Source: Halogeometricum borinquense DSM 11551 (GTDB taxonomy: Archaea; Halobacteriota; Halobacteria; Halobacteriales; Haloferacaceae). Taken from it: a DNA stretch of 32,000 nucleotides. The stretch lies in the NCBI RefSeq assembly GCF_000172995.2, contig NC_014731.1, forward strand, positions 300,001-332,000. Reading direction: 5' to 3'. Shown one piece after another: positions 3,900 to 32,000 of this stretch. The notes beneath the pieces were generated by a model, which ran no database searches, had not been told where the DNA came from, and saw only the letters and a list, made by a program, of their open reading frames with translations. The first letter of the stretch is position 1, and each line of letters starts with the position of its first letter. The position numbers were made by a program, and so were the translations under genes.

Positions 3900-5825
3900 C
3901 GATATTCGCTCGGTTTGCTCTTGAGCCCGCCGTGTAGCCAGTCGATATTTACTCTTGAGTGTGGCGAGGAGGGGAGATCATAGCAAGAACGAACACCAGC
4001 ATCCCCCTCATAGACAGACAAACAGATGATCTCCTACACGCCCCGAATGACCGATACGTTCGCTATCTCGCTTGAGCTGAAAGAACGCCTACAAAGAGGA
4101 ACCAGTCTTTACGACGCATTCGAAGCGCTTGACCATCCGTTTTCGTTCCCAGAGAATCAATATCCTGAGTGGCACTCCACATCATATCCGTTTCGCGGCA
4201 TGGTCAAACTGTTTTACTACCGGGAAATCACCGGAGAGAGCTATCGATCGCTAACGCGCCAGCAAGAACTTGCAGTCTTGTTCGGCCTCAAGAAAATCCC
4301 AGACGAATCAGTACTCTCTCGAACTTGGCACAACCGATTCGACGATGCGGGTCGTGCCTTCGTCACCAATGGAGCACACGATCTCGTCTGGAGGATCGAA
4401 AACGGGGATTTCTACGCTCCTGAAGTACGGTCACTAGAAGAGATCGAGACACCACTCAACGAGACTGACGACAAATCTGAGAGTCAACCCACGTTTACTA
4501 ACGCCCAGATCTCTCGGACAACCCATCTCGCACGCGACCACGCATTTAGGTCGTTCAACTCTGGTCGAGCCCAGAACACGACTTACGAGGATACTCGCTT
4601 TCTCGAACTTCAGACGTTCATTGGGATGGCTGGTTGTGGAACACCGCAGGGCGCGAGACGGTTTCAGATCCGCCGAGGTACGGAGTACGGGCCACATGGC
4701 GATACGCACCTTCGGACAGTCAAAAAATTCGATCCTGAGGGTCTGATCGCTGGATTTCAACAGGCGACAGAGCGGCTTCTATCTGTGATCCAGTCAGAAG
4801 TCACGTTCCGTCGTCCTGTTACCGTTGCGATCGATATCACGACGCTGCGATACTATGGCGATGTCGAAGGAATGCGGATGGTTAGCGGGACGAAAGACGG
4901 TGATGGACGGGGATTCAAATTTGCGACGCTCTCGATCGTCGGATGGAACATTCCCATCATATTAGCCGTTGAGCCCGTCCGTGAGAGCTCCGCATGGGAT
5001 GAGAACCCGCCGAATCGGATTCATCGTGTGGTCCGACGGCTCGTTCGACGAGCACAAGAGCTCGTTCCGATTGAGACGGTTCTCTGTGACGCTGAATTCG
5101 ACGCAAAGTTGGTCTACCAAACGCTGTCAAACCTCGGCGTGAACTACCTGGTTCCAAAGCGGTCGTTCAACGCAGAGCGAGCAGCGATCAAGCGGATGAG
5201 CGAGGATGGGCAAGACGTCGCGGTCGAATCAACGACGGTTCACACTGATCAGGGATCGCATGCGATGCGGTTCTTGTATGTCCCCTCGACGAAAGGAGAC
5301 GGTACAGCCGTCTTCGCAACGAACCTCAGGGTCGGGCCAGCCGAGGCCGAGGCGTACTGTCAGCGATATAGCCGCCGATGGCAAATCGAAAACGAGTACA
5401 AGTCGATCAAGTACGACTTCTTAGCGAAAACCTCCTCGAAAGACTACCGCGTTCGATTGTTTTACTTCGTGTTCGCAGCGCTACTGCACAATATCTGGCG
5501 GCTTACCGACTTCCTCCTGAAAACGGGAATTAGCGACGATATAGACTACGCGCCCGTACTGACAGCTGGTGAGTGTGTAGAATGGGTTTCTTCTGCACTG
5601 ATTCCAGCAGACTAAGCAGCTCTCAACTCGGTACGCCCTTCGCGAGTGGAAACACTTTCTCGAAGCAGGAGTTTCAGACGGGAATCCGACACTTACAGAG
5701 TTCACTTCGAGAATCGACCGAAGAGTTCGATCAGGATAGATGATTCTGGCGAATATCCTATTGAATAAAACCGGAAACTGGCCATCCTCCGAAACTGTGA
5801 AATGTGAAACTGAGCGAATTTCATA
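3900..5825 (+). mobile_element. IS4-family insertion sequence; ends only tentatively placed
   Basis: Transposase CDS plus a weak candidate terminal inverted repeat: atattcgctcggtttg at 3902-3917 versus the reverse complement of gaaactgagcgaattt at 5806-5821 (13/16 match). I could not find a target-site duplication. Confidence 0.35.
4026..5615 (+). CDS. IS4-family DDE transposase (ISH-type)
   Basis: 529-aa ORF. The C-terminal YSRRWQIENEYKSIK matches the IS4-family Y-(2)-R-(3)-E-(6)-K signature. Candidate DDE residues are VAIDITT... and LCDAEFD. Confidence 0.85.
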   Translation: MISYTPRMTDTFAISLELKERLQRGTSLYDAFEALDHPFSFPENQYPEWHSTSYPFRGMVKLFYYREITGESYRSLTRQQELAVLFGLKKIPDESVLSRTWHNRFDDAGRAFVTNGAHDLVWRIENGDFYAPEVRSLEEIETPLNETDDKSESQPTFTNAQISRTTHLARDHAFRSFNSGRAQNTTYEDTRFLELQTFIGMAGCGTPQGARRFQIRRGTEYGPHGDTHLRTVKKFDPEGLIAGFQQATERLLSVIQSEVTFRRPVTVAIDITTLRYYGDVEGMRMVSGTKDGDGRGFKFATLSIVGWNIPIILAVEPVRESSAWDENPPNRIHRVVRRLVRRAQELVPIETVLCDAEFDAKLVYQTLSNLGVNYLVPKRSFNAERAAIKRMSEDGQDVAVESTTVHTDQGSHAMRFLYVPSTKGDGTAVFATNLRVGPAEAEAYCQRYSRRWQIENEYKSIKYDFLAKTSSKDYRVRLFYFVFAALLHNIWRLTDFLLKTGISDDIDYAPVLTAGECVEWVSSALIPAD

Positions 5826-12791: not shown

Positions 12792-13763
12792 TCACTCAAG
12801 GTTGCCTTCATTTTCGAGTCGCCGCATCACTTCTTTGTGTTGCTGTTCAGCGGCATCTTCAGGTGTATAGCGGTCACCACCCGTGTAATCGTCGTCTTCC
12901 CACGGTTTGTCAGGACCAACACCGACCGGCGGCGTATCACCGTGAGTCGTATCACACGTGAGGCAGGTCCAGAGTGCGACACCATCAACGTGGACCGAGG
13001 GGTGGCCCCCGTCATACCCGTCGAAAATATGCTGTGTCGCCTCGCCACAGTTCGGACAGCTCCGATTTCGAACTGTTTTGTCGGTGGTGTTGCGCTTGCG
13101 GTCGTAAAGGACTGCAGGAACCACCCAGTAGTCGTGGCTCTCACAGTGTGGTTTCTCGTCGAAGTCTGCCAGTCGGTCCTTGTCAACGAGCCCGTCACCG
13201 TTCTCGGTGAAGATGTACGGGTCGCTGTCCGAAAGGGGTGAATTGGTCACATCGGGTGATTCTTCGACGGATAGTGTCGTCTCCCAGTCGGTCTTATCAA
13301 CCGCGGTCTCGAAGAGTCGCTGCCCGTCGTTGGAGTCCAGCGGGACTGCGTCGGGGAGGCTTCCCCACCCAGCGGTCAGTATTTGGGCGGGGTCGTCGAT
13401 ATCGTAGAACAGTTCATAGCTGCTACGCGACTTGTGGCCTCCGTCTCGAAGGCGGAACGATGAACTTCCGATGGCGAGCGCATGGTAGCGATTTGATGCT
13501 GGGATGATGGCGATCGCAGTCTTCGAAATCGACCACTCGTAGTCGGTAGCGTCGGCCGCTCGCGGCGATGACTCGCGGTGGTCGACACAGCGAGCGCGCG
13601 TCGGTGGAATCGACCCGCCACAGACTTCACAGTGTGCTGGGCTGGCTTCGACATCGTGGTTTGCAAATTGCCACTCATGCTGATGAGACTGTCTTCCGGT
13701 GTGATTTGGTCCGCCTGCTGTGCCAGGGAGTTCCTCTCGTGGAATCCGACCTTCGTCGTCCAT
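12792..13763 (-). CDS. double zinc-ribbon protein of unknown function
   Basis: First ATG (13763) gives 323 aa. The longer listed ORF runs through the AT-rich promoter region. Metal-binding motifs: CEVCGG-x10-CVDH, and CPNCGEATQH-x-WTCLTCDTTH (CxxC-x27-CxxC). Composition is acidic. Confidence 0.6.
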   Translation of the reverse strand: MDDEGRIPREELPGTAGGPNHTGRQSHQHEWQFANHDVEASPAHCEVCGGSIPPTRARCVDHRESSPRAADATDYEWSISKTAIAIIPASNRYHALAIGSSSFRLRDGGHKSRSSYELFYDIDDPAQILTAGWGSLPDAVPLDSNDGQRLFETAVDKTDWETTLSVEESPDVTNSPLSDSDPYIFTENGDGLVDKDRLADFDEKPHCESHDYWVVPAVLYDRKRNTTDKTVRNRSCPNCGEATQHIFDGYDGGHPSVHVDGVALWTCLTCDTTHGDTPPVGVGPDKPWEDDDYTGGDRYTPEDAAEQQHKEVMRRLENEGNLE

Positions 13764-13843
13764 CAGGCACCCATAGAGGCGGCTTGTATTTATGTTGTAA
13801 ACATAATATGTCCGAATAGAATATACGTATTGATATTGAATAA
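13764..13843. promoter_or_regulatory. 80-bp AT-rich divergent promoter region with a short palindrome
   Basis: Lies between two divergent starts. Contains tatgtt-gta-aacata (13791-13805) and TATA-like runs (atttat, atatac). Confidence 0.35.
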
Positions 13844-16800
13844 ATGCCAATGCCACCGAGCGATGACCAGAATACTGGTGACTCACCCCATGTTCCCCCA
13901 TGGATATCTGACGGAGAGACGGCTGATCCAGACATTATCAACGTTGATTCGAAGCATGATTCGACAGAATCTCCTGACTCACTGACTAGAGGTGTGGGTC
14001 CGGTCACTGTTTCTGACCTCGACAGAACATGGGCACCCTACTTTCGGTACGACTCTGTCTACCAAGACCAGATTGATGCAGTTGATACGTTCCTTGAACT
14101 CCTCTCGGAGAACGGCTATTACGTTTTTGAGGGAGCATGTGGGACTGGCAAGACGTTGGCGGCCGTCACTGGCGGGATTCACGCGATTCGCGACCAGTCG
14201 ACACTGACGAAGACCCTTGACAACGTTTCTGGAGACTTTCCTGACTACTCGCGGCTGTTCGTGGTTACGCCACTCAAACAGCAACTCCACCAGTTCGTCC
14301 GGGAAATGAAGGGTATCAATGCGTCCCTTCCTGAAGCTAAAGCTCCCGTCTCAACGGTCGTGATCAGGGGTCGAACTGATATGATGCCGTATGCGTACGT
14401 CGACTTCCCACCGTTCGATAGACACGGTGTCGGTGAGAAGATGGATGATCTTAGGGAGATGACGCGAAAGCTCATCAAGTTCGATAGCGACATTCCACTG
14501 GACTGGCCGGGGGACATGTCACCACCAGATTTCTCAAAGGTTGACTACAACTGGGAAGAAGCTAGCTTGACAGCGGAAGACCACCGTGAACGGTTTCGAT
14601 ACGATCCCGTTCGAGCAGAGGCAGTCACCCGAATCGTCAAGGATATGGATCCAAGAGGCGACGAGAGTTTCGATCGCCTGACAGTCAATGGTGTTGAGAC
14701 ACCATATCCGGACCTCGTTCCTCATACGAACGACGTCGTCGATACAGACGTACTCCAGCGACGAGGGACAGGCCAACTTTCCGTTGGGCTTCAGGGCAAG
14801 TTCGATCCGTTCTATGCCGGGGCGTTCATGGAGGACGGTTTGCCGTTCGACTTCCATCACGCGGACCATCACGTATTCGACCAAGAGACGCTTTTCCAGA
14901 CAGCGGCCTCTCGAGGTATCTGTCCACACGAGGCGATGGCGATGCTGGCAGGTCGGGCGGAGGTCGTTCTCGGGAACTACTACCACCTCTTCGACCCCCA
15001 GACCCGGCTACTGACCGACGATAAAATTGGTCTACTGGACTCGGAAACCATCGTTGCCGTCGACGAGGGGCACCAGATTGAGGAGCGGGTCCGCGATATG
15101 CTCTCGATGTCGCTGGATATCTATACACTTGACCGGGCAATTAACGACATCGAGATCACACGAAATTACGCGGTGGGTGACCTCGCCAAGACGCCTACGC
15201 CGAACCTCAATACCAGCGACGCAAGATTGGCCGAATCGCTGGCTGACAGCGCACTCGATACGGTCGGAAACTACTCTGTGACTCCTGAAGATCTCGCTGA
15301 GGTCGAACAGCTACTTCGATTCGCCAAGCAAAAGCTGACTGTCTACGGTTCGGACGCCGTGAGCGAGCGCTACCAGGACATCTCGTGGCAGGATGCCGTC
15401 GAACGCTGGGGTGCAGACCCTATCGAGAACGCGCTTTCTGACCCAGAGTGTCCCGACGAGTCCGACGAGTTCCTTACGGACGCGATTGCTGAGGACGACT
15501 TTGACACTCGCTCGTTCTTCAAGGTCTATCCGGCGATGTTAGGGACGAAGTTCGTGTTCGAGGCACTCGAAGAGGCGGGGATCCACGACCGAACCCCACA
15601 GGGCGTAGAGGTTGGGAAGTTCTTCAAACGCTGGGCAGCCGAGGGTACCGTTGAGTACCACCGTGAGGTCGTCCTCGACGACCGGCGAAAGGAGACCATA
15701 CCGACGGAGTTCCCCGACTGGGTGAAGGCGTGGACACCGAAATTCCAGCTATTCAACTGCATCCCTCGGGACGAACTCCAAGCGGTGTTCGGAGAACTGG
15801 GCGGGGGCGTCCTCATGAGTGCGACCCTCCAGCCTGAGGAGGTTTATACTGAGGCGGTCGGCATCAACGATATCCCGTTCCCCACGGAAGACGAAGAGGA
15901 CGACGATGCCGAGGAGACGGACGTGGTGACGAAGCCCTCTGCGGGAACGAGCCACGATAACTCCGACATCCGTCCAACCGCGTTTGAGCAGTACCCATTG
16001 CGATTCCCTCAGGAGAACCGGGTGTCGCTTATCGCCGACCTCCCGAAGTTCACGAACCGGAATCGAGGGAAACGAACGACTGACCCGCGCCAGATGAAGC
16101 CGGTCCGTAAGCAGTATGCAGATCTTATTGAACAAGCGATTGCCGGCCGTGGGAATATCCTCGTGGCGATGCCGAACTACCGGGAAGCGGAGTGGGCATA
16201 TAACTATCTCAAGAAGCAAGGGTCGTCCAAACGGTTTCACCTCGACCAGTCGAGTTCGGCGCTCGAAACCGACGAGACGCTGGAGTCGTTCTTTGCCGAC
16301 GGTGACGCGGTCATCTTCACCAGTTCGCGCGGCACGATCACTGAAGGCGTTGACTATGACGGCGAGAAGTTGCACGGATGCGTGGCCGTGGGGATTCCGC
16401 TTCTTCCAACAAACTCGAAGCGTATTGATGCTGTGATAGAGGCCTATGACGAGCGTATTGGTGTCAAATCGGGATTCGAGACGGCGCTTATGATCCCAGC
16501 TGTTCGGAAAGTTCGCCAGGCGTTCGGCCGGGTGATTCGTGGGTCGGACGAAGCTGGCTTCCGTCTCCTCGTCGATGAGCGCTACGGATCGACAGGTTGG
16601 GACGGTGTGAACGAGTACCTCTCCGAACAAGAAAGAGAAGAGTTCCAGACTGCAGACCCAGAATTCATCAGCCAGATGATCTCGACGTTTTGGGACGACG
16701 TGGACGAACGGGAACGGGAGCGAGAGGCGGAGGACGACCCGAAGAAGAGTGATATAGAAACGACGAGAACCACGGCGCCGACCGACGATATAGTCCAGAA

Positions 16801-17122
16801 GTCGGCTGTCGGGACGGAAGCAGGCGGTACCAATCAAAAATCCACGACCGAAGTGACGGCAACGAGTGATCCCTCGGCAACGTACTCGAAAATCTACTTT
16901 GGAGATGGTTCAAACCTCTCCAACTGGACTCCCATTAGGACCGATATCGCCGAGAACGAAATCATCCCTATCGTGCGTGAACACACAGTAGATGAAGAGA
17001 GCGGTACGGAGTACATCCAACTCAACTTCGCCAAGGAACTCTCAGTCAGTGGTTGGACAAAAGTCGATGCAGAGATTGTCCATACGCAAATCGAGCCGAT
17101 AGCAAAACGGGCGAGGAAGTAG
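13844..17122 (+). CDS. XPD/Rad3/DinG-family SF2 helicase lacking the Fe-S cluster cysteines, with a ~190-aa C-terminal extension
   Basis: 1092-aa ORF. Motifs: EGACGTGKTLAAV (I), VAVDEGHQIEE (DExH), GGVLMSATLQP, GICPHEAMAM and GNYYHLFDP (XPD-like), TSSRGTITEGVDYDG, VRQAFGRVIRG (VI). Only one Cys falls in the region that would hold the 4-Cys cluster. Confidence 0.85.
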   Translation: MPMPPSDDQNTGDSPHVPPWISDGETADPDIINVDSKHDSTESPDSLTRGVGPVTVSDLDRTWAPYFRYDSVYQDQIDAVDTFLELLSENGYYVFEGACGTGKTLAAVTGGIHAIRDQSTLTKTLDNVSGDFPDYSRLFVVTPLKQQLHQFVREMKGINASLPEAKAPVSTVVIRGRTDMMPYAYVDFPPFDRHGVGEKMDDLREMTRKLIKFDSDIPLDWPGDMSPPDFSKVDYNWEEASLTAEDHRERFRYDPVRAEAVTRIVKDMDPRGDESFDRLTVNGVETPYPDLVPHTNDVVDTDVLQRRGTGQLSVGLQGKFDPFYAGAFMEDGLPFDFHHADHHVFDQETLFQTAASRGICPHEAMAMLAGRAEVVLGNYYHLFDPQTRLLTDDKIGLLDSETIVAVDEGHQIEERVRDMLSMSLDIYTLDRAINDIEITRNYAVGDLAKTPTPNLNTSDARLAESLADSALDTVGNYSVTPEDLAEVEQLLRFAKQKLTVYGSDAVSERYQDISWQDAVERWGADPIENALSDPECPDESDEFLTDAIAEDDFDTRSFFKVYPAMLGTKFVFEALEEAGIHDRTPQGVEVGKFFKRWAAEGTVEYHREVVLDDRRKETIPTEFPDWVKAWTPKFQLFNCIPRDELQAVFGELGGGVLMSATLQPEEVYTEAVGINDIPFPTEDEEDDDAEETDVVTKPSAGTSHDNSDIRPTAFEQYPLRFPQENRVSLIADLPKFTNRNRGKRTTDPRQMKPVRKQYADLIEQAIAGRGNILVAMPNYREAEWAYNYLKKQGSSKRFHLDQSSSALETDETLESFFADGDAVIFTSSRGTITEGVDYDGEKLHGCVAVGIPLLPTNSKRIDAVIEAYDERIGVKSGFETALMIPAVRKVRQAFGRVIRGSDEAGFRLLVDERYGSTGWDGVNEYLSEQEREEFQTADPEFISQMISTFWDDVDEREREREAEDDPKKSDIETTRTTAPTDDIVQKSAVGTEAGGTNQKSTTEVTATSDPSATYSKIYFGDGSNLSNWTPIRTDIAENEIIPIVREHTVDEESGTEYIQLNFAKELSVSGWTKVDAEIVHTQIEPIAKRARK

Positions 17123-17370
17123 CAGATCAGGGTTCACCCATAGAAAAATCCGGTTCTGTAGTTTCGCTAGACCGAGACGCCGCACCTGCAATAAGATAAC
17201 AGCCAATGAACTGCATTGGAGAACTGCAGTTCTGTATTGTTAATCTGTGAAGGGATTAGAACTGATGAACGGGCTTCACGCGGAACGTATCTGGGTCAGC
17301 GTTCGGCGTCGTGGGCACCGTCCGGAAGAAACGCTGTCTGAGAATGAGAGTAGATCGCGAAAGAAGCATA

Positions 17371-23867: not shown

Positions 23868-24140
23868 ATGGAGCAGAATAGCAAGTATGGTGGGTGGGGA
23901 AAAATCTCAGACATAGGTGTTGCTGTGTTTTGCTTGCTGGGAAGCGTTTTCATATTATTTATGTCGCACGCGCTAGCTAGTGCTGGAATCTTGACCATTG
24001 CAGGGATCGCTCTATTGCGACTTCGATCGCAGGATGTGCGTGACTGGACCGACGAGCACACAAGACTGTTCCAGTTGATTTTGGTCCTAATCGGTCTAGT
24101 TATGCTAGTTGATGTGTATCCTGTGGAAGCGCTTCCTTGA
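23868..24140 (+). CDS. small membrane protein (3 predicted TM segments)
   Basis: 90-aa ORF with hydrophobic stretches IGVAVFCLLGSVFILFM, AGILTIAGIALL and LFQLILVLIGLVMLV. Confidence 0.4.
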   Translation: MEQNSKYGGWGKISDIGVAVFCLLGSVFILFMSHALASAGILTIAGIALLRLRSQDVRDWTDEHTRLFQLILVLIGLVMLVDVYPVEALP

Positions 24141-24785
24141 GATTGTTATCTACGAGTAGTGGATGAGTTGCTTGGTCCCCGAGGTCGCAAAGGAGACGGC
24201 GAGGACGACGAACGGCACGAGTAGCGCGCCGACGGCTCAGGAGAAGGCGACGACCGAAACCGCAGTGGCCGCCGACGCCAACGCGAGATAGACGCCGTAG
24301 GTGAGCGCCCGACGCCGAAGGGAACGGCGGATCGCATCGCCGCCGCCGTCGGAGAGGGAAAAGCGGGGTCTTCTCGGTCCCGCGGATGGTCGGCGTCCCC
24401 GCATCGACGGACAGCTCGCCGTGGACCGTCAGCCGGGCCCCCTCGGGGACGGCCTTCGACAGGAAGTAGTCGTTCTTCAGGTCGATGTCCGGGTCATCGA
24501 CGACGACGCCTCGGAGCCGTTCGAGCGGCAGTTCCGTCGAGTGATCAGCCAGCTGGACGTACGGCGAATTCCTGAGGTAGACGTGCCCGTCCGGCTCGGG
24601 GGGAAGCCGACCGGCCGTACCGCCGCCAGCCGGTCGGCGTCGTGGACGTCTCGCAGCCACCCCGGGTCGACCCGGAGCTTCCCGTTCTCGGTCGCGACGG
24701 TGAACGATCCGAACTCGACGCCGGAGGCGAACCGCACGACCGTCGCTCGAAAGGTTTCGGCCAGCTCTTCTCCGTTGGCTCATTT
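24140..24785 (-). pseudogene. high-GC remnant of a membrane-anchored protein gene (N-terminally truncated, at least 2 frameshifts and an in-frame TGA)
   Basis: Sensible translation needs three frames: ...GEELAETFRATVVRFASGVEFGSFTVATENGKLRVDPGWLRDVHDADRLAAVRPVGFPP / EPDGHVYLRNSPYVQLADHSTELPLERLRGVVVDDPDIDLKNDYFLSKAVPEGARLTVHGELSVDAGTPTIRGTEKTPLF / LSDGGGDAIRRSLRRRALTYGVYLALASAATAVSVVAFS*AVGALLVPFVVLAVSFATSG. The first frame switch sits at a G7 run (24598-24604). Confidence 0.6.
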
Positions 24786-25310
24786 CGTAGATGAGTTATT
24801 GACCGCAGTTGTACCGTTCACCGTAGTTGAGTTGGTCAATAAATTCCGTTGGACAGTAGACCTGCAGTTCCACGTCTCACAGATCTAAGTACGGTCTGCT
24901 GGAGTGATTGAGATTATTCGAGGGGGCAGAAAAGATTTCCAACGAACTTCCTTGTTCCTACAGATTGCAGATGAGAGAATGGAACTGATGTACGAGTCCA
25001 CTCTATTAGAAAAATATTATCCATACTATTTTGCATATTTTTAAGTAATATCATCGATCCGACGAGGGTCGTGAAGAATACGATAACAACAACAGCTCTT
25101 CAGAGAGTCCTTGGCTCAGCATTTCCTCCAATAGCAACGCCAGCGAGCATAGCTACAATCAATGCAGTAAATAATTCAATAGAACTGAAATAATAACGGT
25201 CTCACATTCCTATTTCCCTGATTCGCGATTGTGTCGAGTCTATCTCTCTGGGATGGATTCGCGGTAGTCTGTCATTTCTAAAATGTATGATCTGCTCCAG
25301 TATTGTGGTA

Positions 25311-25745
25311 ATCTACAGTTGGAAAGCGGCAGGTGTAGGCAGTAGTGCGTTCTCATATGCATTCTTAGTTATTTCACAGTACCCGAGTACTATTTAATAT
25401 TAAAATAGTGTATCTACTGCTATAGTTCTTCTATATAGTAGTGTACATCGTAGATATACGAACAATCTGGCGATTGATTAGCGTCGGATTCAAAAATGTC
25501 GTGAAGTGTGGGTGGTCGAAGCGAAATTTGTCACCGATACCGTGTTTATTCTCCAATGTAGTTCTCCTGGAGACCTCCCGTCCGTCGTGTTCTGGGCTTG
25601 TGGCGTGCCAGCGAGTAAAATCGAGCAATCCGAATCGTGGGTACGTAGACGTTAATCATGTCATATGTTCTATCATTACAATATTATTCTTGTAAGGCCG
25701 GAATATGCCAGCCTCCATTCAGAATTCCAGTCGAACTGGAATCTT
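25311..25745 (-). repeat. left arm of a long diverged inverted repeat (helicase 5'-fragment-like, decayed)
   Basis: The reverse complement aligns with 30514-30930. Identical blocks: 25708-25730 vs 30527-30549 (23 nt), 25582-25606 vs 30651-30675 (25 nt), 25522-25544 vs 30708-30730 (23 nt). The stretch 25608-25707 vs 30550-30649 gives 73/100 identities ungapped by hand. Confidence 0.85.
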
Positions 25746-25806
25746 CTTCTGATCGCTTCGTACAGACCAATATCGAACGAAAACAAAAATAAAAAATTCG
25801 CGGCTG

Positions 25807-25843
25807 TAGCTGACAGGCAGTAATTGTTATATTTCGTCAGCTA
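25807..25843. promoter_or_regulatory. 8-bp perfect inverted repeat flanking a TATA-like box upstream of the wHTH regulator gene (candidate operator)
   Basis: tagctgac (25807-25814) and gtcagcta (25836-25843) flank aggcagtaattgttatatttc. The site ends 6-24 nt before the possible starts at 25850 and 25868. Confidence 0.35.
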
Positions 25844-25867
25844 AGACAAGTGGCCGCAAGAGAAAAT

Positions 25868-26635
25868 ATGGAGACAACAATCCGAAAGCGCCATGACATC
25901 CTAGAGGAACTCGTCGATAGCTCGCAGTCAAAGCCAGATTTGGTCTCTCAGATGGACCTTTCGAGGTCAACAATCGACCGAGGAGTGAACGAGTTGCTTG
26001 AGCACGACTGCATAACGAGGACTGGTTCGACCTACGAAGCCACGGAAACCGGTCGGTTAGCCATCAGAGAATACGAGCGGTACCTCCGGTTTGTAGAAAC
26101 CATAAAAGCATCACCGAAAATACTCAACGAAGTTCCGACGAATACGTTTGACACCGTTTTCTTACGAGATGCAGATTTCGATCTCGTTGACGACCAGCAA
26201 CCGTGGGCGGTGCTCGAGAAGAGTACAGAACTTATGAAAAACGCGAAATCTCTGAAAGGCACGGTCCCCGTCATTTTCCAGCGGCATTTTGCTGACTTGA
26301 CTGACTCCTTTGACACTGGCAAGGAAGTGGAACTAATCTGGGACAACTCCCTGTATCACTCGCTGAGTGAGGAAATGCAAGAGATGATAGCTACTTTTCA
26401 GGAGTACGACCAAGCTACAATGTACCGAACTGATTTAACAGATTCATACGCAATCTGGATACTGGACTCTCCGGAAGGAAATCACGCTAGTATCGCGGTC
26501 TTCACGAATGGCGGAATTCGTGGAATCATCCGCAATGATACTTGTGCCGCGGTTGATTGGGCGCTGTCTCAATACGAACAGCGGAAAGAAAGTGCGGTAA
26601 GTATCACGTCGAGACACACCCACAACTGTAACTGA
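25868..26635 (+). CDS. winged-helix transcriptional regulator with DUF1724-type C-terminal domain
   Basis: RKRHDILEELVDSSQSKPDLVSQMDLSRSTIDRGVNELLEHDCITRTGSTYEATETG is an ArsR/MarR-like wHTH. The C-terminal ...YAIWILDSPEGNHASIAVFTNGGIRGIIRNDTCAAVDWA resembles the haloarchaeal DUF1724 family. A GTG at 25850 is an alternative start. Confidence 0.75.
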   Translation: METTIRKRHDILEELVDSSQSKPDLVSQMDLSRSTIDRGVNELLEHDCITRTGSTYEATETGRLAIREYERYLRFVETIKASPKILNEVPTNTFDTVFLRDADFDLVDDQQPWAVLEKSTELMKNAKSLKGTVPVIFQRHFADLTDSFDTGKEVELIWDNSLYHSLSEEMQEMIATFQEYDQATMYRTDLTDSYAIWILDSPEGNHASIAVFTNGGIRGIIRNDTCAAVDWALSQYEQRKESAVSITSRHTHNCN

Positions 26636-26639
26636 AAGA

Positions 26640-27131
26640 CTACTTAGAATTCGCGGTCGTTTGGTCTTTCGGCACTATGTAGTCGTCCACCATTGTTATC
26701 TCCCCGTTGGCCTGTTGGTGCCGCACGAGAATGAAGGTGTCACTGTCAGGAACCCACTCGAACTGAAGCACCAGGAGATACCGGTACAGAGAACGGTTTT
26801 GTTGAGCAGATTCGACGTCTGCTTCCAGTCGGACATCGATGGTAGTGCGAGCCTCATTATTTACCGTAGGCACGTGCGCATAGAGATCGGTAAGTTTTCC
26901 GCTGGAGACAAAGTTACCCGTGATAACGAGTTCTGCTTCGTTTCGTGAGTAGAGTATCTGTGCTGTGTGGTCAGTGTCCGCCGTTTGGTTCTTTCTCCAA
27001 GTGACCTCGCGTGATTCAAGATTGATTGACCGCTCATTCGGGTTCTCGTCAAGTACTGTACATCCCGCAAGCGTTGTTAGTAGTACAGTGCCAACCGTAC
27101 GCCGACTGAGAACGTGATCTCGCTCACTCAT
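26640..27131 (-). CDS. Tat-dependent lipoprotein of unknown function
   Basis: From the ATG at 27131: MSERDHVLSRRTVGTVLLTTLAGCTV, which has a twin-arginine motif followed by a LAGC lipobox. The mature part appears beta-rich. Confidence 0.65.
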   Translation of the reverse strand: MSERDHVLSRRTVGTVLLTTLAGCTVLDENPNERSINLESREVTWRKNQTADTDHTAQILYSRNEAELVITGNFVSSGKLTDLYAHVPTVNNEARTTIDVRLEADVESAQQNRSLYRYLLVLQFEWVPDSDTFILVRHQQANGEITMVDDYIVPKDQTTANSK

Positions 27132-27321
27132 ATCTACGGTTTTGCATGTCATGGGGGATTTATCTTTTCTTTCAGGGTTAGTGATGTGCCTCACTCTCTG
27201 TGGGAATGACCACCTGCTGACAAACTCTCTCAAAGGATACCTAAAAGTATAACAAGATGAAGATTCAGTCAGGAATTAAAATAAAGAAATCAGCAAAATC
27301 ATGATGAAAGTGTCGTATACA

Positions 27322-28386
27322 ATGTCACGAGACAGCGAAAGCGACTTGGCAAAAAATGGCACAGGAGTGACTCGACGAGGCGCGCTGAAAGGCCTCGGTG
27401 GAGTAGTAGTTGGTAGTGCCGCACTTGGGTCGAGTGCAAGCACTGGTGCTGTAGCATACGAAACTGACCCGAACGCAGATTCTAACAAATGCGGACCCAG
27501 ACCGAGCCCATGGAAAGATCATGGTGAATATGATACGCAGTTCCCATCCGGAACTACCCATCACGTATGTTCAGTCCTAGATCTCACTCACTCCCATTAC
27601 GAACCCAAAGACGAAAACCAAAATATAGACGACTACTGGATACACGAGTTTCAATTTAGTAGTCAGGTCAGTGCAGTGGAGACCGAGTCAGGGGATCCCA
27701 CCGACAAGCTCCGGTCTCAAGGAGTTCGGATCAAGAATAACAACACAACGAAAGTCCCAGTTCGTGCAGCGAAAGGCGAGCAAAACAACGCCCTAGCACC
27801 TCAGTCCAACAATCCAGACAATGTCGAGGACTTTAATGGTGCAGTTATCAGCGCAGCCGGTCTTGCAATCACGCTTGCAGAAAAGACTCAGGCGGCGCTC
27901 GTACTGTCTGGTGCCCAACTTGCGAACTCGCTTGGACAGATAGCGTACGACAAAAAGACTCCCGATGACTCCGCGTCATTCATCTGGGAAGGCGGATACA
28001 GTGGAATTGAGAGGGGTGCCCATCAGGTTGTTTTCAGCGTCGCCAACTATCTAACGTCCTCATCTGACACACCGCCCGTCCAGATCAGTGCGCACGCAGG
28101 TCAAGCCTATACTGGTTGGGATCTCAAATTCTCCAAGTGCGACGTCTCAACATCTGGAAAAGATGGGTCCTCCAGTGAGGCGCAGGGACCGATGGGAGAT
28201 CCGCGGAAGATGTCTAAAGCAGAAAAAGAGGAATTCGGGATCAAGGAGGTTCAGCGATCACAACTTGCTAAGGAGGTTGGAGAACACCGTATACAAACTG
28301 AGAATGAACGGGTCTACGTCGCAGAAGACCCGCCAATCTCTGCTACTCCGATGAGTCGGGAGGAAAGTAAAAAACTCTGGGAGTAG
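27322..28386 (+). CDS. Tat-secreted protein, candidate halocin H4-like archaeocin precursor
   Basis: MSRDSESDLAKNGTGVTRRGALKGLGGVVVGSAALGSSASTGAVA/YETD is a Tat signal. There is a central uncharged hydrophobic stretch, then PDDSASFIWEGGYSG, and a C-terminal EEFGIKEV...ERVYVAEDP. The layout matches halocin H4 as I recall it; this is unverified. Confidence 0.6.
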   Translation: MSRDSESDLAKNGTGVTRRGALKGLGGVVVGSAALGSSASTGAVAYETDPNADSNKCGPRPSPWKDHGEYDTQFPSGTTHHVCSVLDLTHSHYEPKDENQNIDDYWIHEFQFSSQVSAVETESGDPTDKLRSQGVRIKNNNTTKVPVRAAKGEQNNALAPQSNNPDNVEDFNGAVISAAGLAITLAEKTQAALVLSGAQLANSLGQIAYDKKTPDDSASFIWEGGYSGIERGAHQVVFSVANYLTSSSDTPPVQISAHAGQAYTGWDLKFSKCDVSTSGKDGSSSEAQGPMGDPRKMSKAEKEEFGIKEVQRSQLAKEVGEHRIQTENERVYVAEDPPISATPMSREESKKLWE

Positions 28387-28394
28387 GAAGGGTG

Positions 28395-28742
28395 TCAAGG
28401 TTGGCTGATGGCATTATGGTACGCGGCGAAGGCTTTGGCCCAGCGGTCGACTGATTTCTAGGAGCTATTGTGGGGAACTGGCTGTGAACCGCCCCGGGGT
28501 CAAGCCCCGAGGCACTCGCCTTGTTTTCTCTGTAGATCGACTTGATGAACCCAGTTGTGAACGGCGACCTCGCTCCGATCGATCCTAAACCTTCCGAGAT
28601 ACTTACTTACCTCACGCAGCGACATGCCGGCCAAGTGACTGCGGATCCCTATTTCAATCGCCCAGCGCGGCGTTTGATCTCGCTCCACAAACGACAAGTC
28701 GATCTACATGATTCGTTCGCTGAGGCGTTCGATTTCGGTCAT
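28395..28742 (-). mobile_element. IS6-family insertion sequence remnant (transposase with nonsense codon and internal deletion)
   Basis: The minus strand reads MTEIERLSERIM*IDLSFVERDQTPRWAIEIGIRSHLAGMSLREVSKYLGRFRIDRSEVAVHNWVHQVDLQ, an IS6 N-terminal HTH region with TAG where W is expected. This jumps to a C-terminal piece ...SVDRWAKAFAAYHNAISQP* (28395-28460). Confidence 0.6.
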
Positions 28743-28866
28743 AGACACTCTGAAGTGAGCGCCTCATCCTCTAACTTAACCCGAGCGAGCGGTTGTGAAG
28801 CAGGTTTCAGGTGGGTGATGGCCGCCGGAGTAGTTTCAACGAGTGAGTTGATGGCTCCTAGCGAGT

Positions 28867-29808
28867 TTAGTCTTGCGCGAGTGCGGCTTGTAGTTCGTCG
28901 TCGTCAGAGAGACCTTCGAGATCTCCGGTTTGGAGCCGCCAAAGGTCTGTATAGAGTCCATCTTGGGTGACGAGGGACTCGTGCGTTCCTTCCTCTTTGA
29001 GCTCTCCTTTTTCGATAGTAAGGATGTGATCGGCAAATCGGACTGTAGAGATGTTATGCGCGACGACGAACGTCGTGCGGTTCGCGGTAACCTCTCGGAG
29101 TGATTGCTGAATGAGGACCTTCGTTCGATTATCAACGTCGCTGGTTGCCTCGTCGAGAATCATGATTTCGGGGTCGCCGACGACTGCGCGAGCGAGCGCG
29201 ATGCGTTGCCGTTGGCCACCCGAAATCCGGTTGCCGCCTTCACCGACGTCGGTCTCGTATCCGTCGTCGAGGTCCTCGATGAACTCGTGTGCTTTTGCTT
29301 GTTTGGCGGCTTCGACAATTTTGTCTGTGGTTGTGTCTGGGGCTCCGTAGCTGATGTTCTCGGCGACGGTTCCAGCGAAGAGGTACGGGTCCTGACTGAC
29401 ATAGCCGATAGCAGACCGGTAACTGTGTTTCGAAAACTCGCGGATATCGGTGTCGTCGACGGTGATCGTTCCGCTGGTGGGGTCGTAGAAGCGGAAAAGG
29501 AGCTTGAGGATTGTTGATTTCCCGGAGCCAGTCGGGCCGACGATGCCAACGGTGTCGCCGGACTCAGCATGGAAGCTGAGATTATTGATGGCTGGTTCGT
29601 CGATTGATACCCGCCTGCGCCTGAAGACGCAGGAAGATGGCCATGTCTCACTCCGTGCGACGACGGGCGAGGTGCGTCCATCCAGCGATGATGGCTATAG
29701 CGACTACGAGGAATCCCCATGTGAAATGAGAACTGAAAGTACCTCGACGATACCAAACTTAACGCGCGTCGGAAAATCTCTCATACGAATTGCTTCGATA
29801 GCGGACAT
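28867..29808 (-). pseudogene. ABC exporter (ABCB/MsbA-type) remnant: intact-looking NBD without start codon, membrane domain largely missing
   Basis: The in-frame minus translation from about 29610 reads VSIDEPAINNLSFHAESGDTVGIVGPTGSGKSTILKLLFRFYDP...ISGGQRQRIALARAVVGDPEIMILDEATSDVD...TTFVVAHNISTV... It is preceded by a stop at 29695-29697. Upstream there are only short TM-like pieces in other frames. Confidence 0.75.
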
Positions 29809-30050
29809 ACATTAATTCGGCTCTATTGAAATTCTCAGCCGCTGATAATTTTCTGGGGCCGTGCTGAATACAGGGCGTGAGTCGGTCGCTGACAGGTGAA
29901 TATCACTGTACTCGGTGAAGATCGAACGATTCGGACACCTCCATGGAGCCAATGGCTGCTCAGCTAATTCGTGGATATTATTTGGATTGTTGTATGTGAC
30001 GATAATATATAATGTAACTATTTTTATTGTCGGGCTAGAGACTAAACGCA

Positions 30051-30290
30051 ATGTCGGCCGAAAACACAGGAGGAACTGTCGAACGGAGGAGCCTTTGGAG
30101 AATTTTGAAAAAGTACGGCGCCGATTATAAATGATATTTCATTGTAGGAGTCATCACAACCGCATTGACAAATCTCATTGGCCATGCTGCTCCGTTAGTG
30201 CTAGGTTCTGCAATCAATTCGATCTTCACCGATAGTGCTCCGCTGAACATTCCATTCCTTCCTGCGGGCTTGGTACCTACCGTAGAAACC
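30051..30290 (+). pseudogene. N-terminal fragment of a second ABC exporter gene (in-frame TGA, then truncated)
   Basis: MSAENTGGTVERRSLWRILKKYGADYK*YFIVGVITTALTNLIGHAAPLVLGSAINSIFTD...FLPAGLVPT. The TGA at 30130-30132 sits where W is expected. Similarity to TMDs ends near 30290. Confidence 0.55.
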
Positions 30291-30483
30291 AGCGGAGAAA
30301 TCAGGATAGCAAATGAACATCACCACCAGCCCTACGACCTACGGATACATCAAAGTCTCTGCCCAAGAAGAAGACCATGACAGCGTCTGAGAGTACTTCC
30401 TTTCCGACATCACCGAGAGTCAGACTGAGTCTGTCTCCCACGACGAGGAATTCAAAAACGACAAGGTGACAGTCTCGATCACG

Positions 30484-31263
30484 ATGGAGAACGTCGCCCT
30501 CTGCGACCGGACAAATTCTAATTCGGCTGGAATTCTGAATGGAGGCTGGTAGATTCCACCCTTACAAAAATGCTATTGTAATGGTGTAATAGATAACACG
30601 ATTGACGTCCACGTATCCATAATCTGGAGTGATCAATTACCCTCGCTGGTACGCCACAAGCCCAGAACACGACGGTCGGGTCTTAGGGGGAACTACATTA
30701 GTGGACACACGGTATCGGTGACAAATTTCGATTCGATTCTCCACTACATTTTTGAATTCTATCCTAACGAAGAGCAAGATTGCTCGTATATATCGGACTT
30801 ATACCACCATACAGAGGCATTATAGTAGTAGATATGTTATTTTAATATTAAATATCATCCAAGTATGGTGGTACAACCAGAGAACACATCTAGGAACGCA
30901 CTACTGCCTACATCTGCCAATTCCCAACTCTTGCTGATTGGATTGGTGGGAGCCATAGTGATTCGGGTGACTGGCGTATGATTCCATTATACGAAGGAAT
31001 ATATCTTGAAGAGGGTGAGCGTGGTGAGATAGAATTTTTTCAGAGACGGTGAATCAACCGAGACCAACGATTTCCCGCGGAGATTTGAGGATCCCAAAAA
31101 GAACGCTATTGTCCAATATCTCTCAACCACTGAACCGACAGAAAGTGGGCGAGAGCGACGAGCAATGGTCTTTGCCCCAAAAAGAGATAGGACCGAAGAA
31201 ATTGCTGAAATGCTTGCTGACCATATTAGAGATGACTGGTCTTCTACGGAGTGGTTTGCGTGA
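30484..31263 (+). pseudogene. Ski2/Hel308-like SF2 helicase pseudogene (multiple stops and frameshifts)
   Basis: Pieced translation: MENVALCDRTNSNSAGILNGGW*IPPLQKCYCNGVIDNTIDVHVSI (Q/motif I region), IIVVDMLF (DExH position), NALLPTSAN (SAT position), LADWIGGSHSDSGDWRMIPLYEGIYLEEGERGEIEFF, NAIVQYLSTTEPTESGRERRAMVFAPKRDRTEEIAEMLADHI (start of RecA2). Confidence 0.55.
30514..30930 (+). repeat. right arm of the long diverged inverted repeat
   Basis: See the left arm. This arm is embedded in the helicase pseudogene 30484-31263. Confidence 0.85.
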
Positions 31264-31323
31264 GTCTCGCGCTCTCGAAGAGTCGAGAGACACCGTTGAA
31301 GCAACCGTACGGAATCTCCACGA

Positions 31324-31881
31324 ATGCACTTCCTGCCGAAATATCTAGGAGATGCCGTCGTCGTGACTGATCCCGAACCCATCCATAAGGGTAGCATCGA
31401 GATCACGGCACTTAGAAAACTCGTGTACCGGCTCGCTCCAGCAGACCGCGAGTACGATCACGTTGCTGAAGCTGCGTCTGCCGTCGTTGAACGATTCCAG
31501 AGCCTCGAAGAGGAAAGTGAGCAGCTCAGGGATAGACTCGACAAACTTGGCGACATTGGTGAACGGAAGACATCGAAAGAGGAGAAGATAGCGGCTATCG
31601 TCACCTTCGCAGCCCGAAAGAAAGGGGAGAAACCCGCTATCACGGTCAAGCCAAAGACGATCAAAGGCCTAATCGATTTCTCTCGTCGCTATGCCTACGA
31701 TTTAGTTGACGATATGCACGATGAGTATGAGTGGGCACACGACCCGACACAAGTCGATCAGTACGGGATGCTAGAAAAAGATACCTCGCAGAAGGGCATT
31801 CTCATCGACTTCGACGGAGTTCACGGAGACCCCGTACCTGTGAACAAGTTCACCACTGGAACAGCCGAACAGGGCCGCTGA
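31324..31881 (+). CDS. hypothetical protein (N-terminus uncertain; possibly chimeric with the helicase remnant)
   Basis: 185-aa acidic ORF with a coiled-coil segment SLEEESEQLRDRLDKLGDIGERKTSKEEKIAAI and a C-terminal part ...SRRYAYDLVDDM...VNKFTTG. The only ATG in frame is at 31324; a GTG at about 31423 is possible. Confidence 0.45.
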   Translation: MHFLPKYLGDAVVVTDPEPIHKGSIEITALRKLVYRLAPADREYDHVAEAASAVVERFQSLEEESEQLRDRLDKLGDIGERKTSKEEKIAAIVTFAARKKGEKPAITVKPKTIKGLIDFSRRYAYDLVDDMHDEYEWAHDPTQVDQYGMLEKDTSQKGILIDFDGVHGDPVPVNKFTTGTAEQGR

Positions 31882-32000
31882 CTGATGGTACCGTTACGAG
31901 ACAAACCTCCGCCGCGTAAGCCAAGTTTAGAATTCGTGAGGCAGGTTGTGGAAGGAAGGAAGTGTTAGTGGTAGGTAGCTCAGCGGAAGCGCAGCAGAGC

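What the first reader, a model, noticed from the sequence alone, without database searches (positions are those of the whole stretch)
25311..30930. Two diverged 420-435 bp inverted repeats bracket a 4.8 kb cassette, and both arms read as decayed 5' halves of a Hel308/Ski2-like helicase gene
The reverse complement of 25311-25745 aligns with 30514-30930. There are perfectly identical blocks of 23-25 nt (ctggaattctgaatggaggctgg, acgccacaagcccagaacacgacgg, cacggtatcggtgacaaatttcg, tattttaatattaaata, gaacgcactactgcctaca). Between them lie mismatched stretches (73/100 by hand in one ungapped stretch) and several indels that are not multiples of three.

The arms read outward from the cassette. Their six-frame translations look like the same protein region, with stops at different places:
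- Right: AGILNGGW*IPPLQKCYCNGVIDNTIDVHVSI; left: TGILNGGWHIPALQE*YCNDRTYDMINVYVPT. This fits the helicase PPQ / motif I region.
- Right: IIVVDMLF; left: TIAVDTLF. This sits at the DExH position.
- Right: NALLPTSAN; left: NALLPTPAA. This sits at the SAT position.

Only the right arm continues into further helicase-like sequence (DWRMIPLYEGIY..., AMVFAPKRDRTEEIAEML). The left arm ends abruptly in 27-40% GC DNA.

This points to an old inverted duplication of a helicase gene 5' region flanking an accessory cassette. Such a structure could once have allowed inversion or mobilisation of the enclosed genes.
Basis: partly seen in the sequence, partly recalled or inferred. Interest (0 to 1): 0.72.

Follow-up and report, generated by a model that had tools for sequence, protein, structure and literature searches.

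The report
Orphan inverted repeat beside helicase relic
Two old, diverged 420-bp inverted copies of non-coding DNA really do bracket a 4.8-kb segment in Halogeometricum borinquense, but they are not helicase remnants; the only helicase sequence is a 320-bp gene relic that starts where the right copy ends, so this is ordinary genomic debris.

Summary
Window 25317-25745 (reverse complement) aligns with 30514-30929 at 77.8% identity, with five indels and five perfect blocks of 17-25 nt (blastn E 6e-55). It is the only long repeat in 42 kb.

- Pfam and PHROGs scans of all six frames found nothing.
- A frameshift-tolerant alignment of the closest intact helicase (aa 1-200) against each arm scored 24-38, the same as shuffled DNA (about 29 ± 4). 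The positive control scored 465.
- Arm-versus-arm mismatches show no codon periodicity.

A genuine relic of a rare Hel308-like helicase does exist, covering codons ~199-305 with one frameshift. It occupies 30930-31249 and starts exactly at the outer edge of the right arm.

The arms are 41-42% GC orphan DNA. They have no relatives in plasmid, phage, viral, metagenome or genome collections. They carry no target-site duplications, no terminal repeats of their own, and no third copy.

The enclosed segment holds one intact three-gene module (FilR1-type regulator, small protein, secreted protein). It also holds IS6 and ABC-transporter gene relics.

Best reading: an old inverted duplication of non-coding DNA in a repeatedly rearranged accessory region, now inert. 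One unexplained detail is that the perfect blocks are more numerous than uniform drift predicts (P about 1e-4). Interest is low.

The parts
25317..25745 (-). Left arm of the inverted repeat (429 nt, 42% GC), non-coding orphan DNA. Read on the minus strand it is collinear with the right arm.
   Evidence: No protein-family signal in any frame. No helicase signal.
30514..30929 (+). Right arm of the inverted repeat (416 nt, 41% GC), 77.8% identical to the left arm.
   Evidence: Arm similarity ends at 30929.
30651..30675 (.). Longest perfect block (25 nt, ACGCCACAAGCCCAGAACACGACGG); its left-arm twin is at 25582-25606. The other perfect blocks (right arm / left arm) are 30527-30549 / 25708-25730 (23 nt), 30707-30730 / 25522-25545 (24 nt), 30838-30854 / 25391-25407 (17 nt, AT palindrome) and 30894-30912 / 25334-25352 (19 nt). 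Background identity outside the blocks is 67%.
   Evidence: The excess of long perfect runs has P about 1e-4 by permutation.
30930..31249 (+). Internal relic of a rare Hel308/Ski2-like DEAD/DEAH helicase gene (codons ~199-305 of a 941-aa homologue). It has a 1-nt insertion frameshift near 31044 and is cut off sharply at both ends.
   Evidence: 84.4% nt identity to Natronosalvus plasmid NZ_CP101159. tblastn 89% aa identity, E 4e-47. Third-codon-position bias 5/4/21. Homologue classified by PDB hits to Hel308.
25868..26635 (+). Intact FilR1 / HVO_A0261-type winged-helix regulator, first gene of a conserved three-gene module.
   Evidence: Pfam PF08350 at 1e-24 and PF25213 at 9e-17. Gene call in L004. 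Same module layout in L012.
26640..27131 (-). 163-aa protein of unknown function, second gene of the module.
   Evidence: Gene call in L004. A 162-aa counterpart sits in the same position in L012. No Pfam hit.
27301..28386 (+). 361-aa protein with a twin-arginine-like signal (RRGALKGLGG...) and unknown function, third gene of the module.
   Evidence: Seven homologues at 46-100% identity, repeatedly next to FilR1-type regulators. No Pfam hit.
28530..28784 (-). IS6-family insertion sequence relic (one IS end plus transposase codons 1-71 only).
   Evidence: 88.7% nt identity to a Halorubrum ezzemoulense IS6. tblastn aa 1-71 of 212.
28903..29601 (-). ABC transporter relic: nucleotide-binding domain only (aa 387-619 of a 629-aa homologue); the membrane domain is missing.
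   Evidence: tblastn 54% identity, E 1e-79. Plasmid hits.
30051..30380 (+). 5' relic of a second ABC exporter gene (N-terminal membrane domain, with an in-frame stop), pointing towards the right arm.
   Evidence: tblastn aa 19-87, E 4e-6. Translation. Frameshift-tolerant score 94.
24889..25316 (.). AT-rich (about 38% GC) orphan flank outside the left arm, with no helicase similarity.
31324..31881 (+). Intact 185-aa ORF of unknown function after the helicase relic. It was used to locate the source contig.

Best explanation
The two arms are the diverged copies of one ~420-bp stretch of AT-rich, non-coding, lineage-specific DNA. This stretch was duplicated in inverted orientation long ago (about 22% divergence, ts:tv 2:1, no coding constraint). 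It lies in an accessory, repeatedly rearranged region of the Halogeometricum borinquense DSM 11551 genome.

The arms are not helicase-derived. A 320-bp internal relic of a rare Hel308-like helicase gene (codons ~199-305) happens to be fused to the outer edge of the right arm by an illegitimate junction.

The 4.8 kb between the arms is not a coherent cassette. It holds one intact three-gene module (FilR1-type regulator, 163-aa protein, secreted 361-aa protein). The rest is three gene relics (IS6, ABC ATPase domain, ABC 5' end) joined at sharp breakpoints.

Shown: the repeat, its boundaries, the absence of coding or helicase signal, the relics and their junctions.

Inferred: that the duplication arose as a by-product of mobile-element-driven rearrangement, and that it is now inert. 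Homologous recombination between the arms would invert the segment. With at most 25 nt of uninterrupted identity in a 67% background it should be very rare.
For: Repeat and boundaries. Neutral divergence: 62 transitions to 30 transversions, mismatches by phase 7/13/12 and 13/17/10, and indels not in threes. This contrasts with 5/4/21 for the true coding relic.

No helicase in the arms. No other protein ancestry: Pfam and PHROGs on all frames, ABC and IS6 proteins against the arms, no 5-mer-sharing candidate, and only two spurious low-complexity hits in 1.84 billion proteins.

Orphan status: no match in plasmids, phages, viral contigs, metagenomes or genomes (a chance hit only). There is no third copy in about 216 kb of related DNA.

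Debris context: IS6 relic and ABC relics, helicase relic cut at both ends, and a DDE transposase elsewhere in the window.

An independent short-read assembly of the same strain crosses the right arm in the reference orientation.
Against: The five perfect blocks of 17-25 nt in a 67% background are far more than uniform neutral drift gives (P about 1e-4). Either short motifs are, or were, under constraint, or short conversion patches occurred; a purely inert relic does not predict this.

Both arms end at exactly the same nucleotide at both ends. This also fits a discrete element with defined termini.

The rest of the source genome could not be searched with a sensitive method, so 'only two copies' holds only for the DNA examined and for exact 20-21-mers in the public collections.
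Confidence: 0.6

Rival explanations
1. The arms are two copies, or the long terminal inverted repeats, of an extinct non-autonomous mobile element. One possibility is two insertions of a ~420-bp element. Another is intramolecular replicative transposition, which leaves inverted copies around an inverted segment. One end landed inside the helicase gene.
For: Both arms share exactly the same inner and outer end points. The right arm interrupts a helicase gene at a razor-sharp junction. The region is rich in mobile-element debris, including an IS6 relic inside the segment (IS6-family elements transpose replicatively, from established knowledge) and a DDE transposase at 4026-5615.
Against: No direct or inverted target-site duplication in any of five flank combinations. 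Neither arm has terminal inverted repeats of its own. No helicase N-terminal part lies at either position that an insertion or an inversion would predict. No third copy exists and no relative was found in any collection, including haloarchaeal megaplasmids that are full of IS elements. The arm termini do not resemble the IS6 relic end.
Confidence: 0.2
2. The arms are functional cis-acting DNA: paired promoter or operator regions, perhaps for the adjacent FilR1-type regulator, or recombination sites of an invertible switch. Selection on five short motifs would have maintained them.
For: There is a significant excess of perfectly conserved 17-25-nt blocks (P about 1e-4). One block is an AT-rich palindrome that resembles an archaeal TATA box (TATTTTAATATTAAATA). 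The inner end of the left arm forms a small hairpin (z = -2.1). An HTH regulator gene starts about 105-120 nt inside the left arm.
Against: No arm-like DNA or blocks accompany homologous regulator modules elsewhere. No intact gene lies inward of the right arm; only ABC relics do. No invertase or recombinase gene is in or next to the segment. No iterons or arrays were found. The hairpins are marginal and not conserved in the right arm. No second orientation is on record.
Confidence: 0.12
3. One reading: both arms are heavily decayed 5' halves (motifs I-III) of a Hel308/Ski2-like helicase gene that was duplicated in inverted orientation.
For: A true helicase relic is contiguous with the right arm, and it starts just after the position of motif III (SAT) of the homologue. 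There is about 52% nt identity over the last ~29 nt of the right arm in a MAFFT alignment with the helicase gene.
Against: Identity drops from 84% to background at one nucleotide. This is not what contiguous decay would give, because the relic itself is equally a pseudogene. Frameshift-tolerant alignments of aa 1-200 of two family members equal the shuffled controls. The last 90 nt of each arm against aa 161-200 is not significant (29/300 and 272/300 shuffles reach the score). No DEAD or ResIII signal appears in any frame at E<=1. No Walker A motif is present. Mismatches have no codon periodicity.
Confidence: 0.03
4. The arms encode a structured non-coding RNA present in two copies.
For: Conserved blocks are separated by variable stretches.
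Against: No Rfam family reaches gathering threshold, and none lies in the arms at E<=1. The consensus fold is weak (-42.75 kcal/mol for 430 columns), with only 2 of 74 pairs compensatory.
Confidence: 0.03

Closest known systems
Diverged inverted segmental duplications and gene relics in haloarchaeal accessory regions (IS-rich, low-GC islands)
   Same: The repeat is AT-rich relative to the genome. It is surrounded by truncated genes with sharp breakpoints (IS6, ABC transporter, helicase). It has no coding capacity and diverges neutrally.
   Different: No IS or known repeat family could be assigned to the arms. The five perfectly conserved blocks are not expected for plain debris.
MITEs / non-autonomous IS derivatives of prokaryotes
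   Same: Similar size (~420 bp), non-coding, AT-rich, with defined identical end points in both copies. One copy interrupts a gene.
   Different: No terminal inverted repeats within an arm, no target-site duplication, only two copies, and no relatives in any collection searched.
Invertible DNA segments (phase-variation switches, shufflons) and composite transposons bounded by inverted repeats
   Same: Geometry: inverted repeats bracketing a gene-carrying segment of a few kb.
   Different: No invertase or transposase is present. The arms are 22% diverged with at most 25 nt of uninterrupted identity. Half the enclosed DNA is gene relics. Only one orientation has been observed.
Hel308/Ski2-like SF2 helicases (PDB 9b15, 2p6r; Natronosalvus WP_254810776)
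   Same: The 30930-31249 relic is 89% identical in protein to aa 235-305 of the Natronosalvus family member, which aligns with Hel308 over aa 18-702.
   Different: Only about 107 of 941 codons remain, with a frameshift. The arms themselves share nothing detectable with this family.

Membership tests
Hel308/Ski2-like SF2 helicase (claim for the two arms) | Match to DEAD/ResIII (RecA1 domain) profiles | tested here: not met
There is no DEAD/ResIII hit. The intact homologue gives DEAD at 6e-27.
Hel308/Ski2-like SF2 helicase (claim for the two arms) | Collinear similarity to aa 1-198 (Q motif, motifs I, Ia, II, III) of the closest intact family member | tested here: not met
   tblastn at E<=10 found nothing in the arms. 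Frameshift-tolerant alignment scores 24-38 against a null of 28-29 ± 4, with a positive control of 465. The outer 90 nt against aa 161-200 is not significant.
Hel308/Ski2-like SF2 helicase (claim for the two arms) | Walker A motif GxGKT/S in some frame | tested here: not met
   None is seen in any of the 12 translated frames.
Hel308/Ski2-like SF2 helicase (claim for 30930-31249) | Significant similarity to a family member that itself aligns with Hel308 structures | tested here: met
   tblastn E 4e-47 with 89% aa identity. The homologue against PDB Hel308 gives E 1.5e-69. Coding-type substitution pattern 5/4/21. It is a relic: about 107 codons, frameshifted, truncated at both ends.
MITE / non-autonomous IS | Terminal inverted repeats at the two ends of each copy | tested here: not met
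   No inverted repeat joins the ends of either arm.
MITE / non-autonomous IS | Target-site duplication flanking each copy (or inverted TSDs after replicative inversion) | tested here: not met
   No shared run of 5 nt or more in any of five flank combinations. After 22% divergence, decay of a TSD cannot be excluded.
MITE / non-autonomous IS | Multiple dispersed copies in the genome or in related genomes | tested here: inconclusive
   Only two copies in 42 kb of the contig and about 216 kb of related loci. No relatives in plasmids, phages, viral contigs, metagenomes or genomes. The rest of the source genome could not be searched sensitively.
Invertible segment / site-specific inversion switch | Recombinase (invertase or tyrosine recombinase) in or next to the segment, and both orientations present in a population | tested here: not met
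   No recombinase domain in the segment or its neighbours. Only a 71-codon IS6 relic is present. The two assemblies on record have the same orientation across the right arm. Population-level data were not available.
Archaeal replication origin (ORB repeats around an AT-rich unwinding element next to orc1/cdc6) | Repeated ORB boxes and an adjacent orc1/cdc6 gene | tested here: not met
   No repeated boxes within or between the arms other than the arm homology itself. No Cdc6/Orc1 domain among neighbouring genes.
Known structured RNA family | Rfam covariance-model match or covariation-supported fold | tested here: not met

The most novel reading that the evidence does not exclude
The arms are the only two sampled members of an undescribed archaeal cis-acting element: either the long terminal repeats of a new kind of non-autonomous mobile element, or paired regulatory or recombination regions. 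The five perfectly conserved 17-25-nt blocks would be protein-binding sites, for example for the adjacent FilR1/HVO_A0261-type regulator, kept by selection while the spacers drifted to 67% identity.
Probability: 0.1. Interest if true: 0.4.

Novelty: new member of a known kind. Interest (0 to 1): 0.15.

Why it matters
It matters little beyond annotation hygiene. The result corrects a tempting misreading: short motif-like strings in stop-ridden translations taken as a decayed helicase. It places the real helicase pseudogene fragment at 30930-31249. It also shows that the 'cassette' is a patchwork of one intact three-gene module and several gene relics.

If the conserved blocks proved functional, the locus could give a handle on the binding sites of the poorly understood FilR1/HVO_A0261 regulator family, or on a new non-autonomous element. 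Present evidence for that is thin.

Tried and rejected
1. Helicase origin of the arms. Rejected by tblastn, Pfam, frameshift-tolerant alignment with shuffled controls (two earlier script attempts timed out) and a codon-phase test.

2. Arms as continuations of the neighbouring ABC or IS6 relics. Rejected. One score of 41 against a null maximum of 39, for IS6 versus the left arm, was not reproduced in the sister arm.

3. Any other protein ancestry. Pfam and PHROGs on all frames, a word-indexed search of the 65-aa arm ORF and an exhaustive HMMER search of the 84-aa arm ORF gave nothing. The two hits from the last search were a low-complexity tandem-repeat translation and a multi-receiver-domain protein.

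4. Relatives of the arm DNA. Searches covered plasmids, phages, viral contigs with four blocks, metagenomes with two blocks and genomes with one block. The only hits were a 20-mer match in an Acidobacteria MAG and one in a viral contig. Neither extends, so both are chance.

5. Arm-like DNA next to homologues of the enclosed genes or of the helicase (loci L001, L006-L016). None was found.

6. Structured RNA, a replication-origin-like array, and TSDs or inverted TSDs. All negative.

7. Alternative arrangements in other assemblies. Only the same strain is on record.

8. A literature search for H. borinquense repeats or MITEs gave nothing relevant.

Full report
**Source.** An exact-protein look-up of the ORF at 31324-31881 places the window on contig AOHT01000017.1 of assembly GCA_000337855.1. 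AOHT00000000 is Halogeometricum borinquense (PMC3783009). Locus L004 extends the window 10 kb to the right. An independent short-read (Logan) assembly of the same strain is 100% identical over 26714-32000 and beyond.

**Observation.** The inverted repeat is real.
- The repeat finder returns five collinear inverted blocks that link 25317-25742 to 30515-30929.
- blastn gives 75.6% identity over 427 nt, E 6e-55.
- A global alignment has 323 matches, 92 mismatches and 15 gap columns (77.8% identity). Indels are 2, 3, 2, 7 and 1 nt, and there are 62 transitions to 30 transversions.
- The arms are 41-42% GC in a region whose left neighbourhood is 58-62% GC.
- No other long repeat exists in the window or in the next 10 kb.

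**Where the helicase really is.** A distant blastn of 30460-31330 against plasmids hit a single record, Natronosalvus amylolyticus plasmid NZ_CP101159. The hit lies inside a 941-aa DEAD/DEAH helicase gene and covers only window 30929-31249, at 84.4% identity.
- tblastn of that protein against the window aligns aa 235-305 at 89% identity and aa 193-237 at 68%, in two frames (E 4e-47). Nothing else of the protein is found anywhere in the window.
- The three-way DNA alignment shows arm-to-arm similarity ending at ...CCAACT (30929). Helicase similarity begins at CTTGCTGATTGG (30929/30930) and stops abruptly after 31249. A 1-nt insertion near 31044 causes the frameshift.
- The intact homologue carries DEAD, ResIII and Helicase_C domains. 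Its best solved relatives are Hel308 (9b15, 2p6r; E about 1e-69), then Ski2-type helicases, Brr2 and Pol theta.

The relic's differences from the homologue fall 5/4/21 on codon positions 1/2/3, which is the signature of real coding sequence.

**The arms are not helicase.**
- A frameshift-tolerant protein-to-DNA Smith-Waterman alignment was run with aa 1-200 of the Natronosalvus helicase and of a second family member (P0001), against both strands of both arms. It scores 24-38, against 28-29 ± 4 for 100 shuffles each. The same routine scores 465 on the true relic.
- The last 90 nt of each arm against aa 161-200 is not significant either.
- No flank of either arm contains further helicase sequence.
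- Arm-versus-arm mismatches are spread evenly over the three phases (7/13/12 and 13/17/10).
- The drop from 84% identity to background within one nucleotide is a recombination junction, not gradual decay. The relic on the other side of the junction is just as much a pseudogene.

**What the arms are.** Every attempt to find a relative failed.
- No match in plasmids or phages.
- Exact scans with four conserved blocks in viral contigs, two in metagenomes and one in genomes gave only two chance 20-mer hits that do not extend. The window's own copies were not returned by the genome scan, so they are either masked or absent from that collection.
- An nhmmer profile built from the two arms finds no third copy in about 216 kb of DNA in hand. 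That DNA includes the neighbourhoods of homologues of the enclosed genes and of the helicase.
- ORFs inside the arms have no real homologues among 5.8 billion and 1.84 billion proteins respectively.
- The arms are not continuations of the adjacent ABC or IS6 relics.
- They have no terminal inverted repeats or iterons of their own.
- No direct or inverted target-site duplications occur at any edge.
- There is no Rfam match, and the consensus fold is weak, with 2 of 74 pairs compensatory.

**What lies between the arms.** The segment is a patchwork.
- Intact genes: a FilR1/HVO_A0261-type regulator (25868-26635), a 163-aa protein on the opposite strand (26640-27131), and a 361-aa protein with a twin-arginine-like signal (27301-28386).
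- This three-gene layout recurs in a metagenomic contig (L012). Homologues of the secreted protein often sit near FilR1-type regulators, and in two contigs they sit among integrase, MCM, PolB, Cdc6 and resolvase genes.
- The right half is debris: an IS6 relic (28530-28784, transposase codons 1-71 only), an ABC nucleotide-binding-domain relic (28903-29601, minus strand, aa 387-619 only), and the 5' end of another ABC exporter gene on the plus strand (about 30051-30380, with an in-frame stop).
- The wider window holds a DDE transposase, UvrD-like and XPD-like helicases, an AAA ATPase and other accessory genes.

**One unexplained feature.** Five perfect runs of 17 nt or more (three of them 23 nt or more) lie in a background of 67% identity. 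This is far more than a random placement of the 107 non-matching columns gives: a mean of 0.75 runs of 17 nt or more, P(at least 5 such runs) = 2e-4, and P(at least 3 runs of 23 nt or more) = 5e-5. Short motifs under past or present constraint, or short conversion patches, could explain it. I could not discriminate between these. One block is an AT palindrome that resembles a TATA box. The inner end of the left arm forms a small hairpin of marginal significance that is degraded in the right arm.

The best explanation (confidence about 0.6) is an ancient inverted duplication of orphan non-coding DNA in a mobile-element-scrambled accessory region. It is now inert, with a Hel308-like gene relic fused to one arm. 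A degraded non-autonomous mobile element (about 0.2) or a functional cis-element (about 0.12) remain possible.

From established knowledge of RecA/RadA-type recombination, 22% divergence with at most 25 nt of perfect identity makes inversion by homologous recombination very inefficient. The only second assembly on record crosses the right arm in the same orientation.

This is an ordinary feature of low interest.

Noticed in passing
L001 7405-10230; L015 10001-10969; L016 2714-5521; window 30930-31249: The Hel308-like helicase family of the relic is very rare: only two other members among 5.8 billion proteins. Three of the four known loci are broken at roughly the same place. P0002 stops at aa 279 and a 637-aa Helicase_C ORF follows 55 nt later. 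P0001 stops at aa 322, next to type I R-M and Mrr genes. The window relic ends at aa ~305. This could be a naturally split gene or a recurrent breakpoint in a defence-island helicase.
   Followed up: partly
window 25868-28386; L012 481-3112; L006, L007, L010: A conserved three-gene module of unknown function: a FilR1/HVO_A0261-type regulator, a ~163-aa protein on the opposite strand, and a ~345-360-aa protein with a Tat-like signal. In two metagenomic contigs it lies among integrase, MCM, PolB, Cdc6 and resolvase genes, which suggests carriage on integrative elements.
   Followed up: partly
window 28903-29601 (-) and 30051-30380 (+): Two separate ABC-exporter relics lie on opposite strands: an ATPase domain only, and an N-terminal membrane-domain start with an in-frame stop. 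Either two different genes were truncated, or an inversion split one locus.
   Followed up: partly
window 28530-28784: IS6-family relic (one IS end plus transposase codons 1-71), 88.7% identical to a Halorubrum ezzemoulense megaplasmid IS6. In Halorubrum lacusprofundi record NZ_KX906370 an IS6 and an ABC ATPase gene lie similarly close together.
   Followed up: no
window 25334-25730 and 30527-30912: Five perfectly conserved blocks (17-25 nt) sit in a 67%-identical background, P about 1e-4 under uniform drift. This is unexplained.
   Followed up: partly
window 24100-24888: Two long overlapping ORFs lie on opposite strands (24100-24783 minus, 24301-24888 plus) in high-GC DNA, both without a Pfam hit. 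Gene callers kept parts of both. At most one is likely to be real.
   Followed up: no
window 24889-25316: AT-rich (38% GC) orphan stretch outside the left arm. It contains what looks like a stop-interrupted small two-helix membrane-protein ORF on the minus strand.
   Followed up: no
window 12796-17141: An 86%-identical 4.3-kb stretch is shared with a Haloferax larsenii megaplasmid; it covers most of the XPD-like helicase gene (13844-17122), the ORF on the opposite strand at 12792-13901 and a neighbouring hypothetical gene. A 97%-identical 0.5 kb is shared with Haloferax mediterranei plasmids at window ~24195-24732. Both point to inter-genus exchange of this accessory region.
   Followed up: no
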